5,946 nt of DNA, from IMG/VR virus record IMGVR_UViG_2667527717_000003; one strand, written 5' to 3'. The notes under the pieces were generated by a model that did not search any database, was not told the DNA's origin, and saw only the letters and a list, made by a program, of their open reading frames with translations. The translations under genes were made by a program, and so were the position numbers. Positions 88 through 4,116 of this stretch are shown here, one piece after another; the first letter of the stretch is position 1; each line of letters begins with the position of its first letter. This DNA is from a virus. Lineage: Duplodnaviria > Heunggongvirae > Uroviricota > Caudoviricetes.

Positions 88-1200
88 TTGGGAAAATGGC
101 AGAGTGANNGCACNNNNNGNNNGNNNGAGCATCGGCATAAGAAGATTGCTGAGACGACAGGCTATAAGCCCGGTGCGGGACGTATTATCGAGCGTTTCGA
201 CGGGCGGTTTGAGATAAACGAATTTTATATGCCTGAGCATCCACGTACAGCGGATACAAGTAAGGTGTCCACGTTCCTTAATCATATGGCGTATCTGGTA
301 CCTGATGCCTGGCAGCGCGAGTTTTTCATCGCCCGTCTGGGGTGGATGGTTCAGCGTCCGGAGCGTCGATGCCCGATTTCTATTCTGCATGTGGCTTCCG
401 CACATGGTACGGGCAGAGGATGGGTCAGCCAGTTAATGGAGCGCGTGCTTGGTCCGTGGAACTGTGCTCGTACTCGCATGAAGATCCTGTGCGATAACCA
501 GTTCCATGACTATCTGTACAATACGCTTCTATGCACCATTGACGAGGTGCGCGAAAATGATAAGCGGTATGAGGTGAACGATAAGATCCGTGACGTGCTG
601 ACAGAACCACGGTTTGAAGTGAACCGCAAATATGGCAGCAAAAAAACGATGGATATATACACCGGCTTTCTGTTCTACACCAACCACTTTGATGCGCTGG
701 CGCTGCCAGAGGAAGACCGACGTATCGCTGTGCTGGGGGGCCCTGACTTCGCCGCAACTGAAGAGCATTACGCCAGCCTGTACGGTGCGCTAAGCGACAG
801 CGACTTTATCGCCCAGGTGTACTGGTATCTGATGGGCGTTGACCTGTCTCGCTTTAACTGGCAGCGCGCCCCCGAGACGAAAGAACGCCTTCTGATGATT
901 GAAAGCAATAAGAGCGATGTGGAGGCTGCTCTTATTGAAATCCTGGATAATCCGCCTGTGCCAGCAATGACTTATCAACAAATTGTTAACGCAATACTGG
1001 CAGAAGCAGGAATGGATGTAGAAATTAACCAGAAGCATATTACTCGCATTTTGAAAGAAAGAACAAAGCGGGAACCCGTACGCGTAAAAATTGACGGGTT
1101 TGTATATAGGATTTGGATTCTTGTAAAAAATAACGATTTCAGCAACGAAGAATTGCGCGAAATATATAAATCTTGCGAAATTTTGCAATCTGGATTGTAA
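88..1200 (+). CDS. P-loop NTPase with SF3-helicase-like motif order (D5 / P4-alpha primase-helicase C-terminal domain-like) and an AT-rich C-terminal putative DNA-binding domain; probable replication initiator/helicase. 5' boundary unresolved.
   Basis: 370-codon ORF ending at TAA 1198-1200. Glycine-rich loop HVASAHGTGRGW followed by a Walker-B-like hhhhDE block (LLCTIDEV) and a motif-C-like block (IRDVLTEPRFEVNRKYGSKKTMDIYTGFLFYTNH). Codon usage looks coding from ~128 onward. Start is uncertain: TTG at 88 has no obvious RBS, the first ATG is at 229, frame 1 has a TAA at 4-6, and frame 2 is open from the window start to 217 with N-masked bases at 108-127 in between. Confidence 0.6.
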   Translation: MGKWQSXXXXXXXEHRHKKIAETTGYKPGAGRIIERFDGRFEINEFYMPEHPRTADTSKVSTFLNHMAYLVPDAWQREFFIARLGWMVQRPERRCPISILHVASAHGTGRGWVSQLMERVLGPWNCARTRMKILCDNQFHDYLYNTLLCTIDEVRENDKRYEVNDKIRDVLTEPRFEVNRKYGSKKTMDIYTGFLFYTNHFDALALPEEDRRIAVLGGPDFAATEEHYASLYGALSDSDFIAQVYWYLMGVDLSRFNWQRAPETKERLLMIESNKSDVEAALIEILDNPPVPAMTYQQIVNAILAEAGMDVEINQKHITRILKERTKREPVRVKIDGFVYRIWILVKNNDFSNEELREIYKSCEILQSGL

Positions 1201-1202
1201 AA

Positions 1203-1466
1203 AGGTGACGGCTAGGTGACGGCAAAACGCTTAAGCGTCACCTTAAAAAGTATATATAAAACAATGGGAAATGTGCTAAAGGTGACAGGTGACGGCAGAA
1301 TTTAAAACTATATACGCGATAGTGTGTATTTTAGGTATTATACGATCGCTTATATATAGAGAACTAAAATCAACCGTCACCTGTCACCTAAAACATCTTC
1401 AGGCCTTATATGGCGCGCTTTGCAGCAGGTGACGGATATGTAATTACGCGTCACCTAGCCGTCACC
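1203..1466. repeat. Array of ten GGTGAC/GTCACC sites (extended consensus AGGTGACGG), five direct and five inverted, mirror-symmetric about position ~1335 and flanking an AT-rich core; candidate iteron/origin or multi-site operator region
   Basis: Direct GGTGAC at 1204, 1215, 1281, 1288, 1428; inverted GTCACC at 1237, 1376, 1383, 1450, 1461. The 17-bp block 1204-1220 (ggtgacggctaggtgac) is the exact reverse complement of 1450-1466; the 16-bp block 1280-1295 is the exact reverse complement of 1374-1389. AT-rich core 1296-1373 carries tatata runs. Spacers between mirrored sites are not themselves palindromic. Confidence 0.8.
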
Positions 1467-1831: not shown

Positions 1832-2254
1832 ATGCGTGATATTCGACTGGTTTTAGAGCGATGGGGGGGCTGGGCTGCGAGCGAAGGTTGCAGTGTCTAC
1901 TATCCACCTGTTTCCGCTGGATTTAAGAATCTGCTACCTGCAACGCAAGCCGGGCGGCTGAAGTGCAGTGACAATGACGGTCTGATCATCAGCTCTGCTA
2001 TGAACTGCCTGAAGAAAAAAGATCCGTACCTGTGTACGCTCCTTGAGTGGCATTACATCCAGGCGATGCCTGTGAGGGCTATGGGTGTGAAGCTCGGCGT
2101 ATCACACACTCAAGTTCTGAAGAGGCTCCAGGCTGCAGAGGGATTTATCGACGGCTGCCTGGCTATGCTGGACGTGGTTCTGGAAATGGATCAAGCAGTT
2201 CAGTCAAAGCCTAAGGCTATCAGGACTTTGCGAAGGAGCTGCCCGGCGGCATAA
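1832..2254 (+). CDS. Q: late-gene antitermination protein Q (QuuD / small-Q family of lambdoid phages)
   Basis: 140 aa. N-terminus MRDIRLVLERWGGWAA, AGFKNL, and C-terminal LQAAEG...LAMLDVVLEMD follow the pattern I recall for E. coli prophage QuuD-type Q proteins (MRDIQMVLERWGAWAA...AGFKGL...LQKAEG...ALDIRLEMD). GAGG at 1820-1823 sits 8 nt before the ATG. Position immediately upstream of the lysis cassette is canonical. Confidence 0.85.
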   Translation: MRDIRLVLERWGGWAASEGCSVYYPPVSAGFKNLLPATQAGRLKCSDNDGLIISSAMNCLKKKDPYLCTLLEWHYIQAMPVRAMGVKLGVSHTQVLKRLQAAEGFIDGCLAMLDVVLEMDQAVQSKPKAIRTLRRSCPAA

Positions 2255-2660
2255 TATCCAGTAATCAATCACGTAAGGGAATCAGATGGTATTCAGGATT
2301 GCCGTAAACACCTGACGGCTTCAGGTATCAAGGTAAGATAAAAAATAGTTGTGGAATTCCAAAAAGCCGATTAGCCTGATATCTGTTGAAAACAGTTCAT
2401 CACGAAGAGGCTTCCGCAAGGGGGCCTTTTTTATTGCCCCATTCTGGGGAAAAGTTAATAAAACAGGGCTTTCGCTGCGAAAAAACGCTATGCAGTTTTT
2501 GCCCTTTTTTATGCACCTTTTATTCACTCGAATTTCGTCATTCTGGACCACTTAAGTTGATTAAATAGGCCTTTCATCGCAAATCTATTGCGAGCGGGGA
2601 TCGTGTGGTTCCTATAACGTACATTATGTTAAATAACTTCCTTTTTTAACAAATTTAACA
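2255..2660 (+). promoter_or_regulatory. Q-to-holin intergenic late-control region, expected to hold the late promoter (PR'-equivalent) and the Q utilisation (qut) site; exact promoter not resolved
   Basis: ~400 bp AT-rich non-coding DNA between Q and an intrinsic terminator. Several weak sigma70-like candidates, e.g. CTGACG(2312-2317)-N16-TAAGAT(2334-2339), TTGCCC(2434-2439)-N16-TAATAA(2456-2461), TTGCCC(2499-2504)-N16-TATTCA(2521-2526). Only small TTG/GTG-initiated ORFs without RBS in this stretch. Confidence 0.35.
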
Positions 2661-2686
2661 AGGTTCGCTATGGCGAACTTTTTTTG
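2661..2686 (+). terminator. rho-independent terminator (tR'-equivalent, the likely target of Q antitermination)
   Basis: Stem GGTTCGC (2662-2668) / GCGAAC(T) (2673-2679) with 4-nt loop TATG, followed directly by a T7 run (2679-2685). The reverse complement lacks a T tract, so it is + strand only. It lies ~100 nt upstream of the holin start, as in lambda PR'-tR'-S. Confidence 0.7.
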
Positions 2687-2786
2687 TATTCAGGGCCCAC
2701 CGAAGGACGGCTCATAACCCAATCCTACGGGCGTATACGCAGGGCCCGCCTTTCAACAACACCCCGTAATGGCGGAGGTGGGAAGT

Positions 2787-3128
2787 ATGAAAATGCACAA
2801 TGCTCCTCATTCCTGGCCTGACTTACTGGAACTCTTACAAAGTTGGTGGCGTGGAGATACGCCGTTGGGCGCAGTGGTTATGTCAATTGTTATGGCTGGC
2901 TTGCGCATTGCCTATTTTGGCGGTGGCGGCGGCTGGAAACGAAAAACGCTTGAGATTTTGCTCTGTGGTGCTCTGACGCTGACTTTTGCATCCGCTCTTG
3001 AGTATGTCGGATGGCCTAAATCGCTTTCTGTTGCCATTGGTGGTGGTGTTGGGCTGATCGGTGTCGATGCTATTCGTGGGGCTGCAATGCGAGTAATCGG
3101 TAACAAGTTTGGTGGCTCTAAGGAGTAA
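2787..3128 (+). CDS. holin, class I (three predicted TM segments) with lambda-S-like dual-start motif Met-Lys-Met; the longest ORF would start at ATG 2769
   Basis: GGAGGTGGG (2775-2783) lies 3 nt before ATG 2787; ATG-AAA-ATG at 2787-2795 gives MKM. Three hydrophobic stretches (LGAVVMSIVMAGLRIAYFGG, TLEILLCGALTLTFASALEY, SLSVAIGGGVGLIGVDAI) and a charged C-terminus. Stop TAA 3126-3128 is 3 nt before the endolysin ATG. Confidence 0.85.
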   Translation: MKMHNAPHSWPDLLELLQSWWRGDTPLGAVVMSIVMAGLRIAYFGGGGGWKRKTLEILLCGALTLTFASALEYVGWPKSLSVAIGGGVGLIGVDAIRGAAMRVIGNKFGGSKE

Positions 3129-3131
3129 TTC

Positions 3132-3608
3132 ATGCAGACACTAAATTCCCAACGTAAAGCTTTCCTGGATATGGTGGCATGGTCAGAAGGAACGGATAAC
3201 GGGCGACAACCGACACGTAATCACGGTTATGACGTTATCGTCGGAGGTGAGTTGTTCACTGATTACTCCGATCACCCTCGCAAACTTGTCACGCTAAACC
3301 CGAAGCTTAAATCAACAGCCGCAGGCCGGTATCAGCTTCTTTCACGCTGGTGGGATGCCTACCGCAAGCAGCTTGGCCTGAAAGATTTTTCGCCAGAAAG
3401 TCAGGACGCTGTGGCGCTGCAGCAGATTAAAGAGCGTGGCGCTTTACCGATGATTGACCGTGGCGATATTCGTCAGGCAATCGACCGTTGCAGCAATATC
3501 TGGGCGTCGTTACCTGGTGCAGGTTACGGTCAGTATGAACATAAAATCGGTGACCTGATTTCCAGGTTTAAAGATGCTGGTGGGGTGGTAAATGAAGCTG
3601 ACTTATAA
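3132..3608 (+). CDS. R: endolysin, lambda R-type lytic transglycosylase
   Basis: 158 aa. From memory, the translation is nearly collinear and near-identical with phage lambda R (shared NQRKAFLDM.AWSEGTDNGRQ.TRNHGYDVIVGGELFTDYSDHPRKLVTLNPKLKST.AGRYQLLSRWWDAYRKQLGLKDFSP.SQDAVALQQIKERGALPMIDRGDIRQAIDRCSNIWASLPGAGYGQ), including the catalytic Glu in WSEGT. AAGGAG RBS at 3120-3125. Confidence 0.95.
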   Translation: MQTLNSQRKAFLDMVAWSEGTDNGRQPTRNHGYDVIVGGELFTDYSDHPRKLVTLNPKLKSTAAGRYQLLSRWWDAYRKQLGLKDFSPESQDAVALQQIKERGALPMIDRGDIRQAIDRCSNIWASLPGAGYGQYEHKIGDLISRFKDAGGVVNEADL

Positions 3609-4116
3609 GATTGTCATCGCGGCATTTTTCTTCTCTGCCTTTGGGGCGCTCGTCTGGTCTGCAAACCATTACCACAGCAAGTATCAGGCAGAAAAGTTGC
3701 GGGCTGATAAAGCGGAAGGTGAAGCTGAATATCAAGGGAAAGTGATAGCTAATCAGGCATTAAACTTCAATCGTTTTAACCAGATAGCAGAAAACGCAAG
3801 CCGATTAAATTCTCTGGTCGACATCGGTCACGAGAAGACAGTCATCAAATACCGTGAGGTTCTGCTCCGTGAAAAGAACTGTGATTTCCCTGTTCCTGCT
3901 GATATTGCTGTCGGGTTGCTCAACTACGCGAACCGTTTACGCGCCAGCGCATTGCACGCCGATTCCGGGTACATTGACCCAGCCGGTGATCGTGCCACTA
4001 CCACCAGAACGTTGACATATTGCCAGGCTGTTCTGTGGATTAACCCATTGTTGGCAGCCATCGAGAAGGCGAATAACCAGTTGGCTGGTGTCCGACAAAT
4101 AGAACAGTCCCGGTAA
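3592..4116 (+). CDS. Rz: Rz-type inner-membrane spanin (i-spanin)
   Basis: 174 aa. Start overlaps the endolysin 3' end by 17 nt. N-terminal TM segment (IVIAAFFFSAFGALVWSA), a long charged, helical-looking middle region, and a C-terminal periplasmic segment with Cys. Position after the endolysin and the embedded Rz1 frame support the call. Confidence 0.85.
   Translation: MKLTYKIVIAAFFFSAFGALVWSANHYHSKYQAEKLRADKAEGEAEYQGKVIANQALNFNRFNQIAENASRLNSLVDIGHEKTVIKYREVLLREKNCDFPVPADIAVGLLNYANRLRASALHADSGYIDPAGDRATTTRTLTYCQAVLWINPLLAAIEKANNQLAGVRQIEQSR
3869..4015 (+). CDS. Rz1: Rz1-type outer-membrane lipoprotein spanin (o-spanin), embedded in the +1 frame of Rz
   Basis: Not in the ORF track (48 codons). 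GTG at 3869 with GAGG (3856-3859) ~9 nt upstream. Translation MKRTVISLFLLILLSGCSTTRTVYAPAHCTPIPGTLTQPVIVPLPPER: positive n-region, hydrophobic core, lipobox LSGC, then a Pro-rich mature part with a second Cys. TGA at 4013-4015, entirely inside Rz. Confidence 0.7.
   Translation: MKRTVISLFLLILLSGCSTTRTVYAPAHCTPIPGTLTQPVIVPLPPER

What the first reader, a model, noticed from the sequence alone, without database searches (positions are those of the whole stretch)
2255..2786. Q-dependent late control region with a strong intrinsic terminator and no moron cargo
The layout Q, ~400 bp AT-rich non-coding DNA, hairpin plus T7 terminator (2661-2686), then holin mirrors lambda PR'-qut-tR'-S. This predicts a short terminated leader RNA (6S-like) in the absence of Q. 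Unlike many enterobacterial prophages, the Q-S gap carries no toxin, tRNA or defence cargo, only short TTG/GTG ORFs without RBS. I could not resolve the promoter itself.
Basis: partly seen in the sequence, partly recalled or inferred. Interest (0 to 1): 0.4.

Follow-up and report, generated by a model that had tools for sequence, protein, structure and literature searches.

The report
Phage late switch plus Xer site

Summary
The sequence facts hold: a Q21-family Q gene (1832-2254), a 532-bp AT-richer gap, a hairpin plus T7 terminator (2660-2688), and a lambda-S-type holin (2787). There are no tRNAs and no credible ORFs.

- **Late switch.** Comparison with about 220 related loci places the Q-linked unit at 2349-2438. 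It reads TTGTGG-17-TAGCCT, with a palindrome (TGGAATTCCA) overlapping the -35 that co-varies with the Q recognition helix. A stronger terminator, t1 (2408-2435), follows and predicts a leader of about 50 nt.
It is real, but it is the third hairpin-plus-T element in series, not the Q-proximal one.
- **"No cargo".** This is secondary. Positions 2286-2341 are the remnant of a 342-bp phiTE_015-family gene that is intact in most relatives.
- **Xer site.** Positions 2450-2634 are a cer/psi-type Xer site. The core is GGTTCCTATAA-CGTACA-TTATGTTAAAT (2607-2634), preceded by about 157 bp of indel-free accessory DNA. This module occurs in at least 139 phage loci in unrelated gene contexts, and in phage-plasmids.

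All function is inferred. Nothing has been tested experimentally.

The parts
1832..2254 (+). Q antiterminator gene, Q21 family, 140 aa. Its recognition helix reads SHTQVLKRLQAAEGF.
   Evidence: Pfam PF06530 at E=8e-41. A profile search hits the PDB Q21 structures at E=2.4e-9.
2228..2255 (+). Sigma-70-like TTGCGA-16-CATAAT overlapping the Q stop codon. It is probably the promoter of the deleted downstream gene. It is found only with this Q allele.
   Evidence: It is the best + strand promoter score in the whole window (8.4). L003 has TTGCGT at the same place.
2275..2341 (+). Remnant of a phiTE_015-family gene. The ribosome-binding site AAGGGA and the ATG at 2286 are fused out of frame to the last 52 nt, leaving a 9-codon ORF. 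The deletion is 286 bp.
   Evidence: Alignment with L003, where the 342-bp gene is intact. The same gene family follows a different Q allele in L174.
2349..2377 (+). Candidate late promoter PR': -35 TTGTGG (2349-2354), 17-bp spacer with an A tract (2362-2365), -10 TAGCCT (2372-2377).
   Evidence: The same architecture is found at the end of 38 of 49 distinct long Q genes, with 0 hits in 343 kb of control sequence. It is coding in some alleles and non-coding here.
2352..2361 (.). 10-bp perfect palindrome TGGAATTCCA overlapping the -35. Candidate Q-binding element.
   Evidence: Nine palindrome classes each go with their own Q recognition helix. Symmetry is kept by changes in both arms.
2380..2395 (+). 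-10-like TATCTG (2380-2385; TAAGAG or TATGAG in relatives), a candidate sigma-dependent pause element. A small leader hairpin CTGTT-GAA-AACAG (2383-2395) follows. The predicted start is about 2384.
   Evidence: Position conserved relative to the -10. Fold. The start site is inferred only.
2404..2438 (+). Intrinsic terminator t1, proposed as tR'. Stem 2408-2415/2420-2427, GCAA loop, T6 run 2427-2432.
   Evidence: Folds at -16.6 kcal/mol. Eleven stem variants keep the hairpin at -14 to -20 kcal/mol. The U·G pairs are valid only on the + strand.
2450..2606 (+). Accessory sequences of the Xer site. They include a hairpin with flanking A and T runs (2458-2512) and a weak ARG-box-like 18-mer (2511-2528).
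   Evidence: 215 alignment columns without an indel in 44 distinct copies. The stretch lies on the XerC side of the core. The ARG-box score is 12/16, centred 101 bp from the core centre.
2607..2634 (+). XerC/XerD core site: XerC arm GGTTCCTATAA, centre CGTACA, XerD arm TTATGTTAAAT (identical to the E. coli dif arm).
   Evidence: It is the single match to the dif pattern with at most 3 mismatches; 0 of 200 shuffles gave a match. The XerD arm is invariant in 109 copies, while the XerC arm and centre vary.
2623..2652 (-). Minus-strand sigma-70-like promoter TTGTTA-18-CATAAT. Its -10 overlaps the XerD arm. Possible counterpart of Pcer/Rcd in ColE1 cer.
   Evidence: Score 8.4, and both hexamers are invariant in the 44 copies. 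It is lost in the terS|terL class, so it is not universal.
2660..2688 (+).
   Evidence: -10.4 kcal/mol. Relatives have hairpins of different sequence at the same position, with wobble pairs valid only on the + strand. It is absent in some (L006, L009).
2689..2786 (+). Structured 5' leader of the holin gene. The Shine-Dalgarno sequence GGAGGTGGG is partly paired.
   Evidence: Folds at -38.1 kcal/mol, z = -2.0. Not analysed further.
2787..3128 (+). Holin, lambda S family, with a dual start Met-Lys-Met.
   Evidence: Pfam PF05106 at 1e-27.

Best explanation
The Q-holin gap is a composite of four things.

1. **A Q-utilisation unit at 2349-2438.** It has a weak sigma-70-type promoter (TTGTGG-17-TAGCCT) whose -35 overlaps an allele-specific palindrome, TGGAATTCCA. 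I take the palindrome to be the Q-binding element. A -10-like element around the start site follows, then a strong intrinsic terminator, t1. Without Q, RNA polymerase should make a leader of about 50 nt and stop at t1.
2. **Two further hairpin-plus-T elements.** It would then enter the holin gene and about 22 kb of late genes.
3. **A gene remnant.** Upstream of the unit lies the remnant of an early gene that was deleted in this lineage.
4. **A plasmid-type Xer site (2450-2634).** It most likely lets host XerCD resolve dimers of the circular phage genome.

**Shown:** the sequence elements, their conservation, their linkage or lack of linkage to Q, and the covariation.

**Inferred:** promoter activity, the start site, Q binding to the palindrome, read-through, and Xer recombination.
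For: **Q family.** Pfam PF06530 at 8e-41; PDB Q21 profile at E=2.4e-9.

**Q-linked unit**
- 38 of 49 distinct long Q alleles carry it near their stop codon, against 0 hits in 343 kb of control.
- The motif is coding in some alleles (VVEFQK). In others it contains the stop codon. Here it is non-coding and lies after another gene. It is therefore kept as DNA.
- Nine palindromes pair one-to-one with nine recognition-helix types, and both arms change together.
- The geometry resembles phage 21, where the Q-binding element lies between -35 and -10 and the pause element lies close to the start (PMC6606751; bioRxiv 651190).
- In relatives the unit's terminator is followed by tRNA genes, extra genes and lysis genes, as in lambdoid phages.

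**Terminator t1.** It folds at -16.6 kcal/mol, and 11 stem variants keep the hairpin.

**Xer site**
- One match to the dif pattern; none in 200 shuffles.
- The XerD arm is invariant, while the XerC arm and centre vary.
- There are no indels in the 157 bp on the XerC side.
- The same core lies next to repA/relE and parA in plasmids and phage-plasmids.
- These features match the published definition of plasmid Xer sites.

**Deletion.**
Against: - Both promoter hexamers match consensus at only 3 of 6 positions (score 4.6). That is weaker than expected for a constitutive PR'.
- The -10-like element TATCTG lacks the final T.
- The palindrome and the helix-turn-helix coding region are usually less than 200 bp apart, so their association could be linkage rather than recognition.
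- Phage 21 Q binds a direct repeat, not a palindrome.
- Eleven long Q alleles fail the strict pattern. Four of them (L008, L027, L030, L046) carry CTAGTG in place of TTAGTG.
- Twenty-nine loci with short Q (120-131 aa) lack the palindrome altogether.
- No transcript data exist.
- The ARG-box match is weak (12/16), and no ArcA site was established.
- A dimer-resolution site has no obvious benefit for an integrating phage that packages concatemers.
Confidence: 0.68

Rival explanations
1. PR' and its Q site lie somewhere in 2440-2660, the 2660-2688 hairpin is tR', and t1 merely ends the early operon that contains Q.
For: - t1 follows the last early gene in every allele type.
- The 2660-2688 hairpin is a genuine + strand terminator kept in several relatives with different stems.
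- Some function must explain its position just upstream of the holin gene.
Against: - Positions 2450-2655 are not linked to the Q allele. Q alleles only 31-41% identical share a 79-97% identical copy.
- The same module occurs with no Q nearby: between terS and terL, between terL and portal, after an HTH gene, and in plasmids.
- No + strand sigma-70 promoter is conserved there. The conserved hexamer TATGTT is part of the XerD arm.
- In L078 the Q gene with its own promoter-like unit and terminator lies 6 kb upstream of this module.
Confidence: 0.1
2. The TTGTGG...TAGCCT motif is not a promoter. t1 is only the early-operon terminator. The palindrome is an operator for something else, such as Q autoregulation or another phage protein. 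Q would then act on polymerase arriving from an upstream promoter, or at a site not identified here.
For: - The hexamers are weak.
- A better promoter, TTGCGA-16-CATAAT, lies at 2228-2255.
- The link between palindrome and recognition helix could be hitch-hiking.
Against: - Known Q, Q21 and AlpA proteins load only at a sigma-dependent pause next to a promoter.
- The spacing -35/17-19/-10 and the 26-39 nt to the terminator are kept across alleles whose sequences otherwise differ.
- The 2228-2255 promoter exists only in the allele that carries the extra gene.
Confidence: 0.14
3. The conserved 2450-2655 module is primarily a small-RNA gene on the minus strand. Its promoter would be TTGTTA-18-CATAAT, its start about 2616, and its terminator the 2458-2512 hairpin read on the minus strand. 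The resemblance to a Xer site would be secondary.
For: - It is the best conserved promoter-like site in 44 copies, with a variable spacer between invariant hexamers.
- The hairpin has a T run on the minus strand too.
- ColE1 cer itself encodes the about 90-nt Rcd RNA from Pcer.
Against: - In divergent copies the minus-strand -10 loses its last T (CATAAG, CATAAA). The -35 is absent in the roughly 45 terS|terL copies. The XerD arm stays intact throughout.
- The consensus RNA structure is weak on both strands (about -7 kcal/mol; at most one covarying pair).
- Rfam gives no hit.
Confidence: 0.08

Closest known systems
Lambda PR'-qut-tR' with 6S RNA, and the Stx-phage PR' leader StxS
   Same: - A Q gene is followed directly by a promoter, a short leader, an intrinsic terminator and then the lysis and late genes.
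- A short terminated RNA is predicted in the lysogen. The Stx-phage leader acts as a regulatory small RNA (PMC7547250).
   Different: - The Q here belongs to the Q21 family (PF06530), not the lambda Q family.
- The leader is about 50 nt, against 194 nt for lambda 6S (from memory).
- The promoter hexamers are weak.
- Three hairpin-plus-T elements stand in series.
- The promoter overlaps the end of the Q reading frame in most alleles.
Phage 21 Q (21Q) with its Q-binding element in 21PR'
   Same: - Same protein family (PDB profile E=2.4e-9).
- The DNA element lies in the -35 to -10 region.
- The -10-like pause element lies close to the start.
- Two protomers are expected.
   Different: - The 21Q element is a direct repeat of TGAGCA with an 8-bp period at -26 to -13 (PMC6606751).
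- Here the element is a 10-11 bp inverted repeat at about -33 to -24.
- These Q proteins are shorter (128-145 aa against 162 aa) and align to 21Q only over its first 100 residues, ending at the first helix of the helix-turn-helix motif.
AlpA of Pseudomonas aeruginosa
   Same: A small Q21-fold antiterminator. It binds between -35 and -10 and needs a sigma-dependent pause and a downstream terminator (PMC9371919).
   Different: A single AlpA molecule binds a single 6-bp site (GGGACG). It has no sequence homology to 21Q.
ColE1 cer and pSC101 psi (plasmid Xer recombination sites)
   Same: - An 11-bp XerC arm, a 6-8 bp centre and an 11-bp XerD arm.
- About 180-200 bp of accessory DNA on the XerC side.
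- The XerD arm is the best conserved part.
- A promoter is possible inside the site, like Pcer/Rcd.
   Different: - It sits inside chromosomally integrated tailed prophages that have their own integrase.
- It lies in or at the head of the late operon, always co-oriented with it.
- The accessory-protein sites are not identified.
- Recombination is untested.

Membership tests
Q-dependent late antitermination cassette (Q21 type) | A Q protein of a recognised Q family encoded immediately upstream | tested here: met
   PF06530 at 8e-41; PHROG Q-like at 4e-36; PDB 6JNX/6P18 at E=2.4e-9 with a 13-sequence profile.
Q-dependent late antitermination cassette (Q21 type) | A sigma-70 promoter directly downstream of, or overlapping the end of, the Q gene | tested here: inconclusive
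   TTGTGG-17-TAGCCT scores only 4.6. The architecture recurs in 38 of 49 Q alleles and 0 times in 343 kb of control. Activity was not measured.
Q-dependent late antitermination cassette (Q21 type) | An allele-specific Q-binding element in the -35 to -10 region | tested here: inconclusive
   Nine palindromes pair with nine recognition-helix types. Physical linkage is not excluded. The symmetry is inverted, unlike the direct repeat of 21Q. Binding is not testable here.
Q-dependent late antitermination cassette (Q21 type) | A -10-like pause element in the initial transcribed region | tested here: inconclusive
   TATCTG at 2380-2385; TAAGAG or TATGAG at the same position in relatives; TAGAAT in L005. 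No pausing data.
Q-dependent late antitermination cassette (Q21 type) | An intrinsic terminator between the promoter and the late genes | tested here: met
   t1 at 2408-2435, plus 2458-2512 and 2660-2688.
Q-dependent late antitermination cassette (Q21 type) | Q-dependent read-through of that terminator | not testable with these tools
   Needs reporter fusions or in vitro transcription.
Plasmid-type Xer recombination site (cer/psi) | A 28-30 bp core: an 11-bp XerC arm, a 6-8 bp centre and an 11-bp XerD arm | tested here: met
   2607-2634 is GGTTCCTATAA-CGTACA-TTATGTTAAAT. It is the single match to the dif pattern; 0 of 200 shuffles matched. The dif sequence was confirmed in the literature.
Plasmid-type Xer recombination site (cer/psi) | XerD arm better conserved than XerC arm; centre not conserved | tested here: met
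   Mean entropy is 0 for the XerD arm, 0.57 for the XerC arm and 0.64 for the centre over 109 distinct copies. The copies were selected with a pattern that constrains the XerD arm, so the zero is partly by construction. The rule is as stated in bioRxiv 2024.04.05.588136.
Plasmid-type Xer recombination site (cer/psi) | About 180-200 bp of accessory sequence next to the XerC arm | tested here: met
   About 157 bp (2450-2606) are conserved on the XerC side. The 215-column alignment (2446-2660) has no indel in 44 copies. Conservation ends about 20 bp after the XerD arm.
Plasmid-type Xer recombination site (cer/psi) | An ArgR or ArcA site at a fixed distance, plus PepA binding | tested here: inconclusive
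   The best ARG-box-like match is 12/16, centred 101 bp from the core centre. The ARG-box consensus was taken from memory. PepA has no usable motif.
Plasmid-type Xer recombination site (cer/psi) | XerCD- and PepA-dependent recombination between directly repeated copies | not testable with these tools
   Needs a two-site deletion assay in xerC, xerD, pepA, argR and arcA mutants.
Xer-dependent integrating element (IMEX attP) | The dif-like site lies at the prophage ends after integration | tested here: not met
   The site is internal, with Q on one side and holin on the other, in 146 E. coli chromosomes. The prophage has its own tyrosine integrase next to yfhL.
Structured non-coding RNA (Rfam) | A match to a curated family, or covariation-supported structure | tested here: not met
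   There is no Rfam hit at E<1 in the conserved 2450-2655 module. The only hit in the gap is a sub-threshold ctRNA match (26.1 bits against a 50-bit cut-off) to the t1 hairpin at 2406-2437. RNAalifold gives about -7 kcal/mol on either strand, with at most one covarying pair.

The most novel reading that the evidence does not exclude
Tailed temperate phages of Enterobacteriaceae place a plasmid-type Xer dimer-resolution site inside or at the head of their late operon. The site is always co-oriented with the operon and is bracketed by terminators. Late transcription could therefore act as a switch. While Q is absent, t1 and the flanking hairpins would keep polymerase off the site, so XerCD can keep phage circles monomeric. 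Once Q-modified polymerase reads through, it would sweep the accessory-protein complex off and turn resolution off, just when concatemers are needed for headful packaging. In addition, this Q subfamily would recognise an inverted repeat that overlaps the -35, a loading geometry different from the direct repeat of 21Q.
Probability: 0.15. Interest if true: 0.75.

Novelty: new variant of a known kind. Interest (0 to 1): 0.5.

Why it matters
If the assignments hold, three things follow.

- **Q specificity.** The Q21 family would gain a large, naturally varied set of matched protein and DNA-site pairs: nine recognition helices and nine palindromes. These are ready-made specificity-swap experiments. 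They also raise the question of how a Q21-type nozzle loads from an inverted repeat rather than a direct one.
- **Leader RNA.** The predicted constitutive leader of about 50 nt, with a terminator hairpin and a U tail, is the kind of prophage RNA that acts as a regulatory small RNA in Stx phages.
- **Xer sites in phages.** A cer/psi-type Xer site was found in at least 139 tailed-phage loci as well as in phage-plasmids. This suggests that host XerCD has a role in the life cycle of integrating tailed phages. My two literature searches did not find this described. The shared module could also serve as a recombination linker between early and late gene blocks.

For annotation, it shows that "empty" Q-to-S gaps can hold DNA-level elements that gene callers and Rfam do not see.

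Tried and rejected
**Readings of the conserved module (2450-2655) that I rejected**
- *Structured RNA.* RNAalifold was weak on both strands, and there was no Rfam hit.
- *Protein-coding.* There is no 3-nt periodicity, and ORF ends are not conserved.
- *Minus-strand small-RNA gene as the main function.* It looked attractive in the first 44 copies. It was rejected because the promoter decays in divergent copies while the XerD arm does not. I keep it only as a possible Pcer-like add-on.
- *A + strand late promoter with -10 TATGTT.* I held this for a while because genes always follow in the same orientation. I dropped it once TTATGTTAAAT was recognised as the dif XerD arm.
- *Other motifs.* DnaA boxes (TTATGCACC, TTATTCACT), the sigma-28 motif GCCGATAA, sigma-54, LexA and IHF were all checked by eye. 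They match only in part or are not conserved.
- *cos or pac site.* Rejected because the position relative to the terminase genes varies. The TerS DNA-binding domains also differ between phages that share the module.
- *attP.* Rejected.

**Other points**
- The direct repeats TGCGCTACGC x2 in L006 looked like a Q site of the 21Q kind. The first copy varies while the second does not. Only its palindromic core tracks the Q helix.
- My first unit-detection script used a wrong regular expression and under-counted. It was corrected.
- The promoter sequences of phage 21 could not be read from the papers because they appear only in figures.
Full report
**What the window is.** The 5946 bases are 100% identical to four induced E. 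coli phages (vB_EcoM-606R2, -689R2, -611R5, -683R1). They also match prophages in 146 of 5426 complete E. coli genomes, always on the chromosome. The gene order is as follows:
- a DUF5906 primase-like gene;
- a 260-bp iteron region;
- a 96-aa ORF;
- Q (1832-2254);
- the gap (2255-2786);
- holin, endolysin and Rz/Rz1;
- TerS and TerL.

In the whole phage about 22 kb of co-oriented late genes follow. The prophage has its own tyrosine integrase next to yfhL.

**Checking the observation.**
- Q is a Q21-family protein. It matches PF06530 at 8e-41, and a profile of homologues hits the solved phage 21 Q structures at 2.4e-9.
- The holin is lambda-S-like with an ATG-AAA-ATG dual start.
- The gap is AT-richer than its flanks (GC 0.375-0.45 against 0.53).
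- It has no tRNA and no Rfam match above threshold.
The scan places it at 2660-2681 plus the T run, and it folds at -10.4 kcal/mol with z = -3.5.
- Relatives carry hairpins of different sequence at the same place, with G·U pairs that work only on the + strand.

- *t1.* At 2408-2435 there is an 8-bp G+C-rich stem (AGGCTTCC/GGGGGCCT) with a GCAA loop and a T6 run. It folds at -16.6 kcal/mol. Eleven sequence variants of this stem in related phages all keep the hairpin, at -14 to -20 kcal/mol, through changes on both sides.
- *The 2458-2512 hairpin.* This third element has A and T runs on either side (-17.5 kcal/mol, z = -3.3).

**"No cargo" is a deletion.** Most E. coli relatives match the gap only from window position 2285 onwards. 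In ETEC H10407 (L003) and an O121 strain (L004), a 342-bp gene annotated "phiTE_015 family protein" lies between Q and the rest of the gap. The alignment shows that the window keeps that gene's ribosome-binding site and its ATG (2286). These are fused, one base out of frame, to the gene's last 52 nt. This is a 286-bp deletion that leaves a 9-codon ORF. The best sigma-70-like site on the window's + strand, TTGCGA-16-CATAAT at 2228-2255, overlaps the Q stop codon. It occurs only with this gene, so I read it as that gene's promoter. The gene has no known function.

**Where the Q-linked unit is.** I collected 80 loci with Q homologues of 47-90% identity. In almost all Q proteins of 128-145 aa, the DNA at or just after the stop codon follows one plan:
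- TTGTGG, TTGTGT or TTAGTG;
- a spacer of 16-19 bp with a central A tract;
- a TAnnnT hexamer;
- a conserved G.TA(A/T)GAGT stretch;
- about 25 variable bases;
- a strong intrinsic terminator.

tRNA genes, extra genes or lysis genes come after that. A pattern for this plan hits 38 of 49 distinct long Q alleles and nothing in 343 kb of other sequence from the same loci.

In the window the plan occupies 2349-2438, as TTGTGG-17-TAGCCT, then TATCTG, then t1. The motif is part of the Q reading frame in some alleles (it encodes VVEFQK). In others it contains the stop codon. In the window, and in L174, it is non-coding DNA that follows the extra gene. It is therefore kept as DNA, not as protein sequence.

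**A candidate Q-binding element.** A perfect palindrome overlaps the -35 hexamer; in the window it is TGGAATTCCA at 2352-2361. Nine palindrome classes exist, and each goes with one type of Q recognition helix:

| Palindrome | Q recognition helix |
|---|---|
| TGGAATTCCA | SHT(H/Q)VLKRLQ |
| TGTAATTACA | SHNHVSVRLQ |
| TGTCATGACA | SYNTVS(L/I)RIQ |
| TGTGCGCACA | SHLSVRTSLR |
| TGCGCTACGCA | SEGFIRQQLQ |
| TGCGGGCCGCA | SEREVRRL |
| TGCGGGTCGCA | SEREIRRV |
| TGCGTGTCGCA | SEMEVRRR |
| TGCGGCCCGCA | DEKVIRVEIQ |

Symmetry is kept by paired changes in both arms. This is what co-evolving protein and DNA specificity looks like.

Two cautions apply. The two features are usually less than 200 bp apart, so linkage contributes. 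Also, phage 21 Q binds a direct repeat (TGAGCA twice, between -35 and -10; PMC6606751), not an inverted one.

The geometry otherwise fits. The palindrome ends 19 bp upstream of the -10-like TATCTG. This is comparable with the distance from the 21Q sites to its pause element. That comparison is my inference.

**Why the promoter is not in 2440-2660.** Q alleles only 31-41% identical to the window's carry a 79-97% identical copy of 2450-2655. A window-type Q can carry a divergent copy of it (L009). The module is therefore not linked to the Q allele.

Two exact-pattern scans of viral contigs found it in at least 139 loci. The gene upstream of it falls into these classes:
- TerS in about 45 loci, with the module sitting between terS and terL;
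- the phiTE_015-family gene in 19;
- Q in about 30;
- a 90-aa HTH protein of podovirus-like phages in about 35.

It also lies between a TerS-like gene and terL in Pectobacterium phage ZF40, between terL and portal in Klebsiella phage Mulock, and before higB in Yersinia phage vB_YpM_39. There is one copy per genome. In L078, Q with its own promoter-like unit and terminator lies 6 kb upstream of the module.

**What the module is.** Its invariant 3' block is a XerC/XerD core site. In the window, 2607-2634 reads GGTTCCTATAA-CGTACA-TTATGTTAAAT. E. coli dif reads GGTGCGCATAA-TGTATA-TTATGTTAAAT (sequence confirmed). A search for the dif pattern with at most three mismatches gives this single hit and none in 200 shuffles.

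The evidence across copies is:
- In 109 distinct copies the XerD arm never varies, while the XerC arm and the 6-bp centre do. The copies were picked with a pattern that constrains the XerD arm, so its invariance is partly by construction.
- The 157 bp on the XerC side are conserved, and the 215-column alignment (2446-2660) has no indel in 44 copies.
- These are the published hallmarks of plasmid Xer sites such as ColE1 cer and pSC101 psi. In those sites about 180-200 bp of accessory DNA next to the XerC arm binds PepA with ArgR or ArcA in fixed register (PMC2699498, PMC5357621, bioRxiv 2024.04.05.588136).
- The same core lies next to repA and a relE/higB toxin pair in 47-kb E. coli phage-plasmids, and next to parA in a 14-kb Klebsiella plasmid.

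The accessory-protein sites remain unidentified. The best ARG-box-like match is only 12 of 16 positions. Because the site is internal to the integrated prophage, it is not the attachment site.

**A possible Pcer-like promoter.** On the minus strand, TTGTTA-18-CATAAT (2652 to 2623) has both hexamers invariant in the 44 copies of the first set, with a variable spacer between them. Its -10 overlaps the XerD arm. ColE1 cer contains a promoter, Pcer, that makes the about 90-nt Rcd RNA and is thought to be held off by XerCD (PMC4393325, PMC2254391). The parallel is suggestive. However, the promoter decays in divergent copies and is absent from the terS|terL class. It is not the reason the module is conserved.

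**How the region most likely works.** Early transcription makes Q. In relatives it also makes the extra gene.
- *Without Q.* Polymerase starting at the weak promoter at 2349-2377 should stop at t1, giving a leader of about 50 nt.
- *With Q.* Q bound to the palindrome would load onto polymerase paused at the -10-like element.

I did not test that. The Xer site itself most likely lets host XerCD resolve dimers of the circular phage genome. Every step involving activity, binding or recombination is inference.

**Verdict.** The finding is a real Q-dependent late control region of a known kind, with its parts mis-assigned. The two things worth following up are the allele-specific inverted repeats at the -35 and the cer/psi-type Xer site embedded in late operons of integrating tailed phages. 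Two literature searches did not turn up a description of the latter. That is not proof that none exists.

Noticed in passing
window 1204-1466: Ten copies of GGTGACGG (at most one mismatch) lie on both strands between the primase-like gene and the 96-aa ORF. The whole window has 14 matches against 3.6 expected, and 0 of 200 shuffles reached that number. They look like iterons of a replication origin.
   Followed up: partly
window 108-127: Ns are scattered through this stretch inside the primase-like ORF, so the sequence there is masked or uncertain.
   Followed up: no
window 2689-2790: The holin leader folds at -38.1 kcal/mol (z = -2.0), with the Shine-Dalgarno sequence partly paired just upstream of the Met-Lys-Met dual start. 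This recalls the structure that sets the holin/antiholin ratio in lambda S (from memory). Part of it (ACGGACGGCTCATAACCCAATCC) is also conserved in L010, L016 and L027, upstream of different genes.
   Followed up: no
window 3854-4015 inside 3592-4116: An Rz1-like lipoprotein ORF (LSGC lipobox) is embedded in the +1 frame of the Rz gene. It gives a weak LysC Pfam hit.
   Followed up: no
L004 1317-2014 (E. coli O121 strain 201805972): An IS1A element is inserted in the Q gene, leaving a truncated Q of 106 aa. This prophage probably cannot switch on its late genes.
   Followed up: no
L180, L187, L212, L214 (about +70 to +170 after the Q stop): Sequences that look like tRNA genes follow directly after the Q-linked terminator, in the classic lambdoid cargo position. 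I did not run ARAGORN on them.
   Followed up: no
L200-L231 (29 loci): Short Q homologues (120-131 aa, helix KKDEKLIRIEIQ) have a terminator 2-17 nt after the stop codon and no palindrome. Where these proteins act is open.
   Followed up: no
L174 (+1 to +350 after the Q stop): A homologue of the phiTE_015-family gene sits between a different Q allele (129 aa) and its promoter-like unit. The arrangement Q, extra gene, PR' therefore recurs.
   Followed up: partly
L233 (E. coli 47-kb plasmid) and L150 (Yersinia phage vB_YpM_39): The same arrangement of two small ORFs, a Xer site and a relE/higB toxin-antitoxin pair occurs in a plasmid record (where repA lies upstream) and in a phage record. They appear to be one phage-plasmid lineage.
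   Followed up: partly
window 2642-2655: The block TTTTTTAACAAATT lies 7 bp after the XerD arm. It is invariant in the Q-linked and HTH-linked copies but is replaced by a ribosome-binding site in the terS|terL class. Apart from supplying the minus-strand -35, its role is unexplained.
   Followed up: partly
L078 7013-8026 and L105 6866-7879: A 337-aa ORF that looks like an integrase (judged by eye from its N-terminal sequence; no family search was run) lies between the lysis genes and terS, just upstream of the terS-Xer site-terL junction. I did not examine whether it relates to the module.
   Followed up: no
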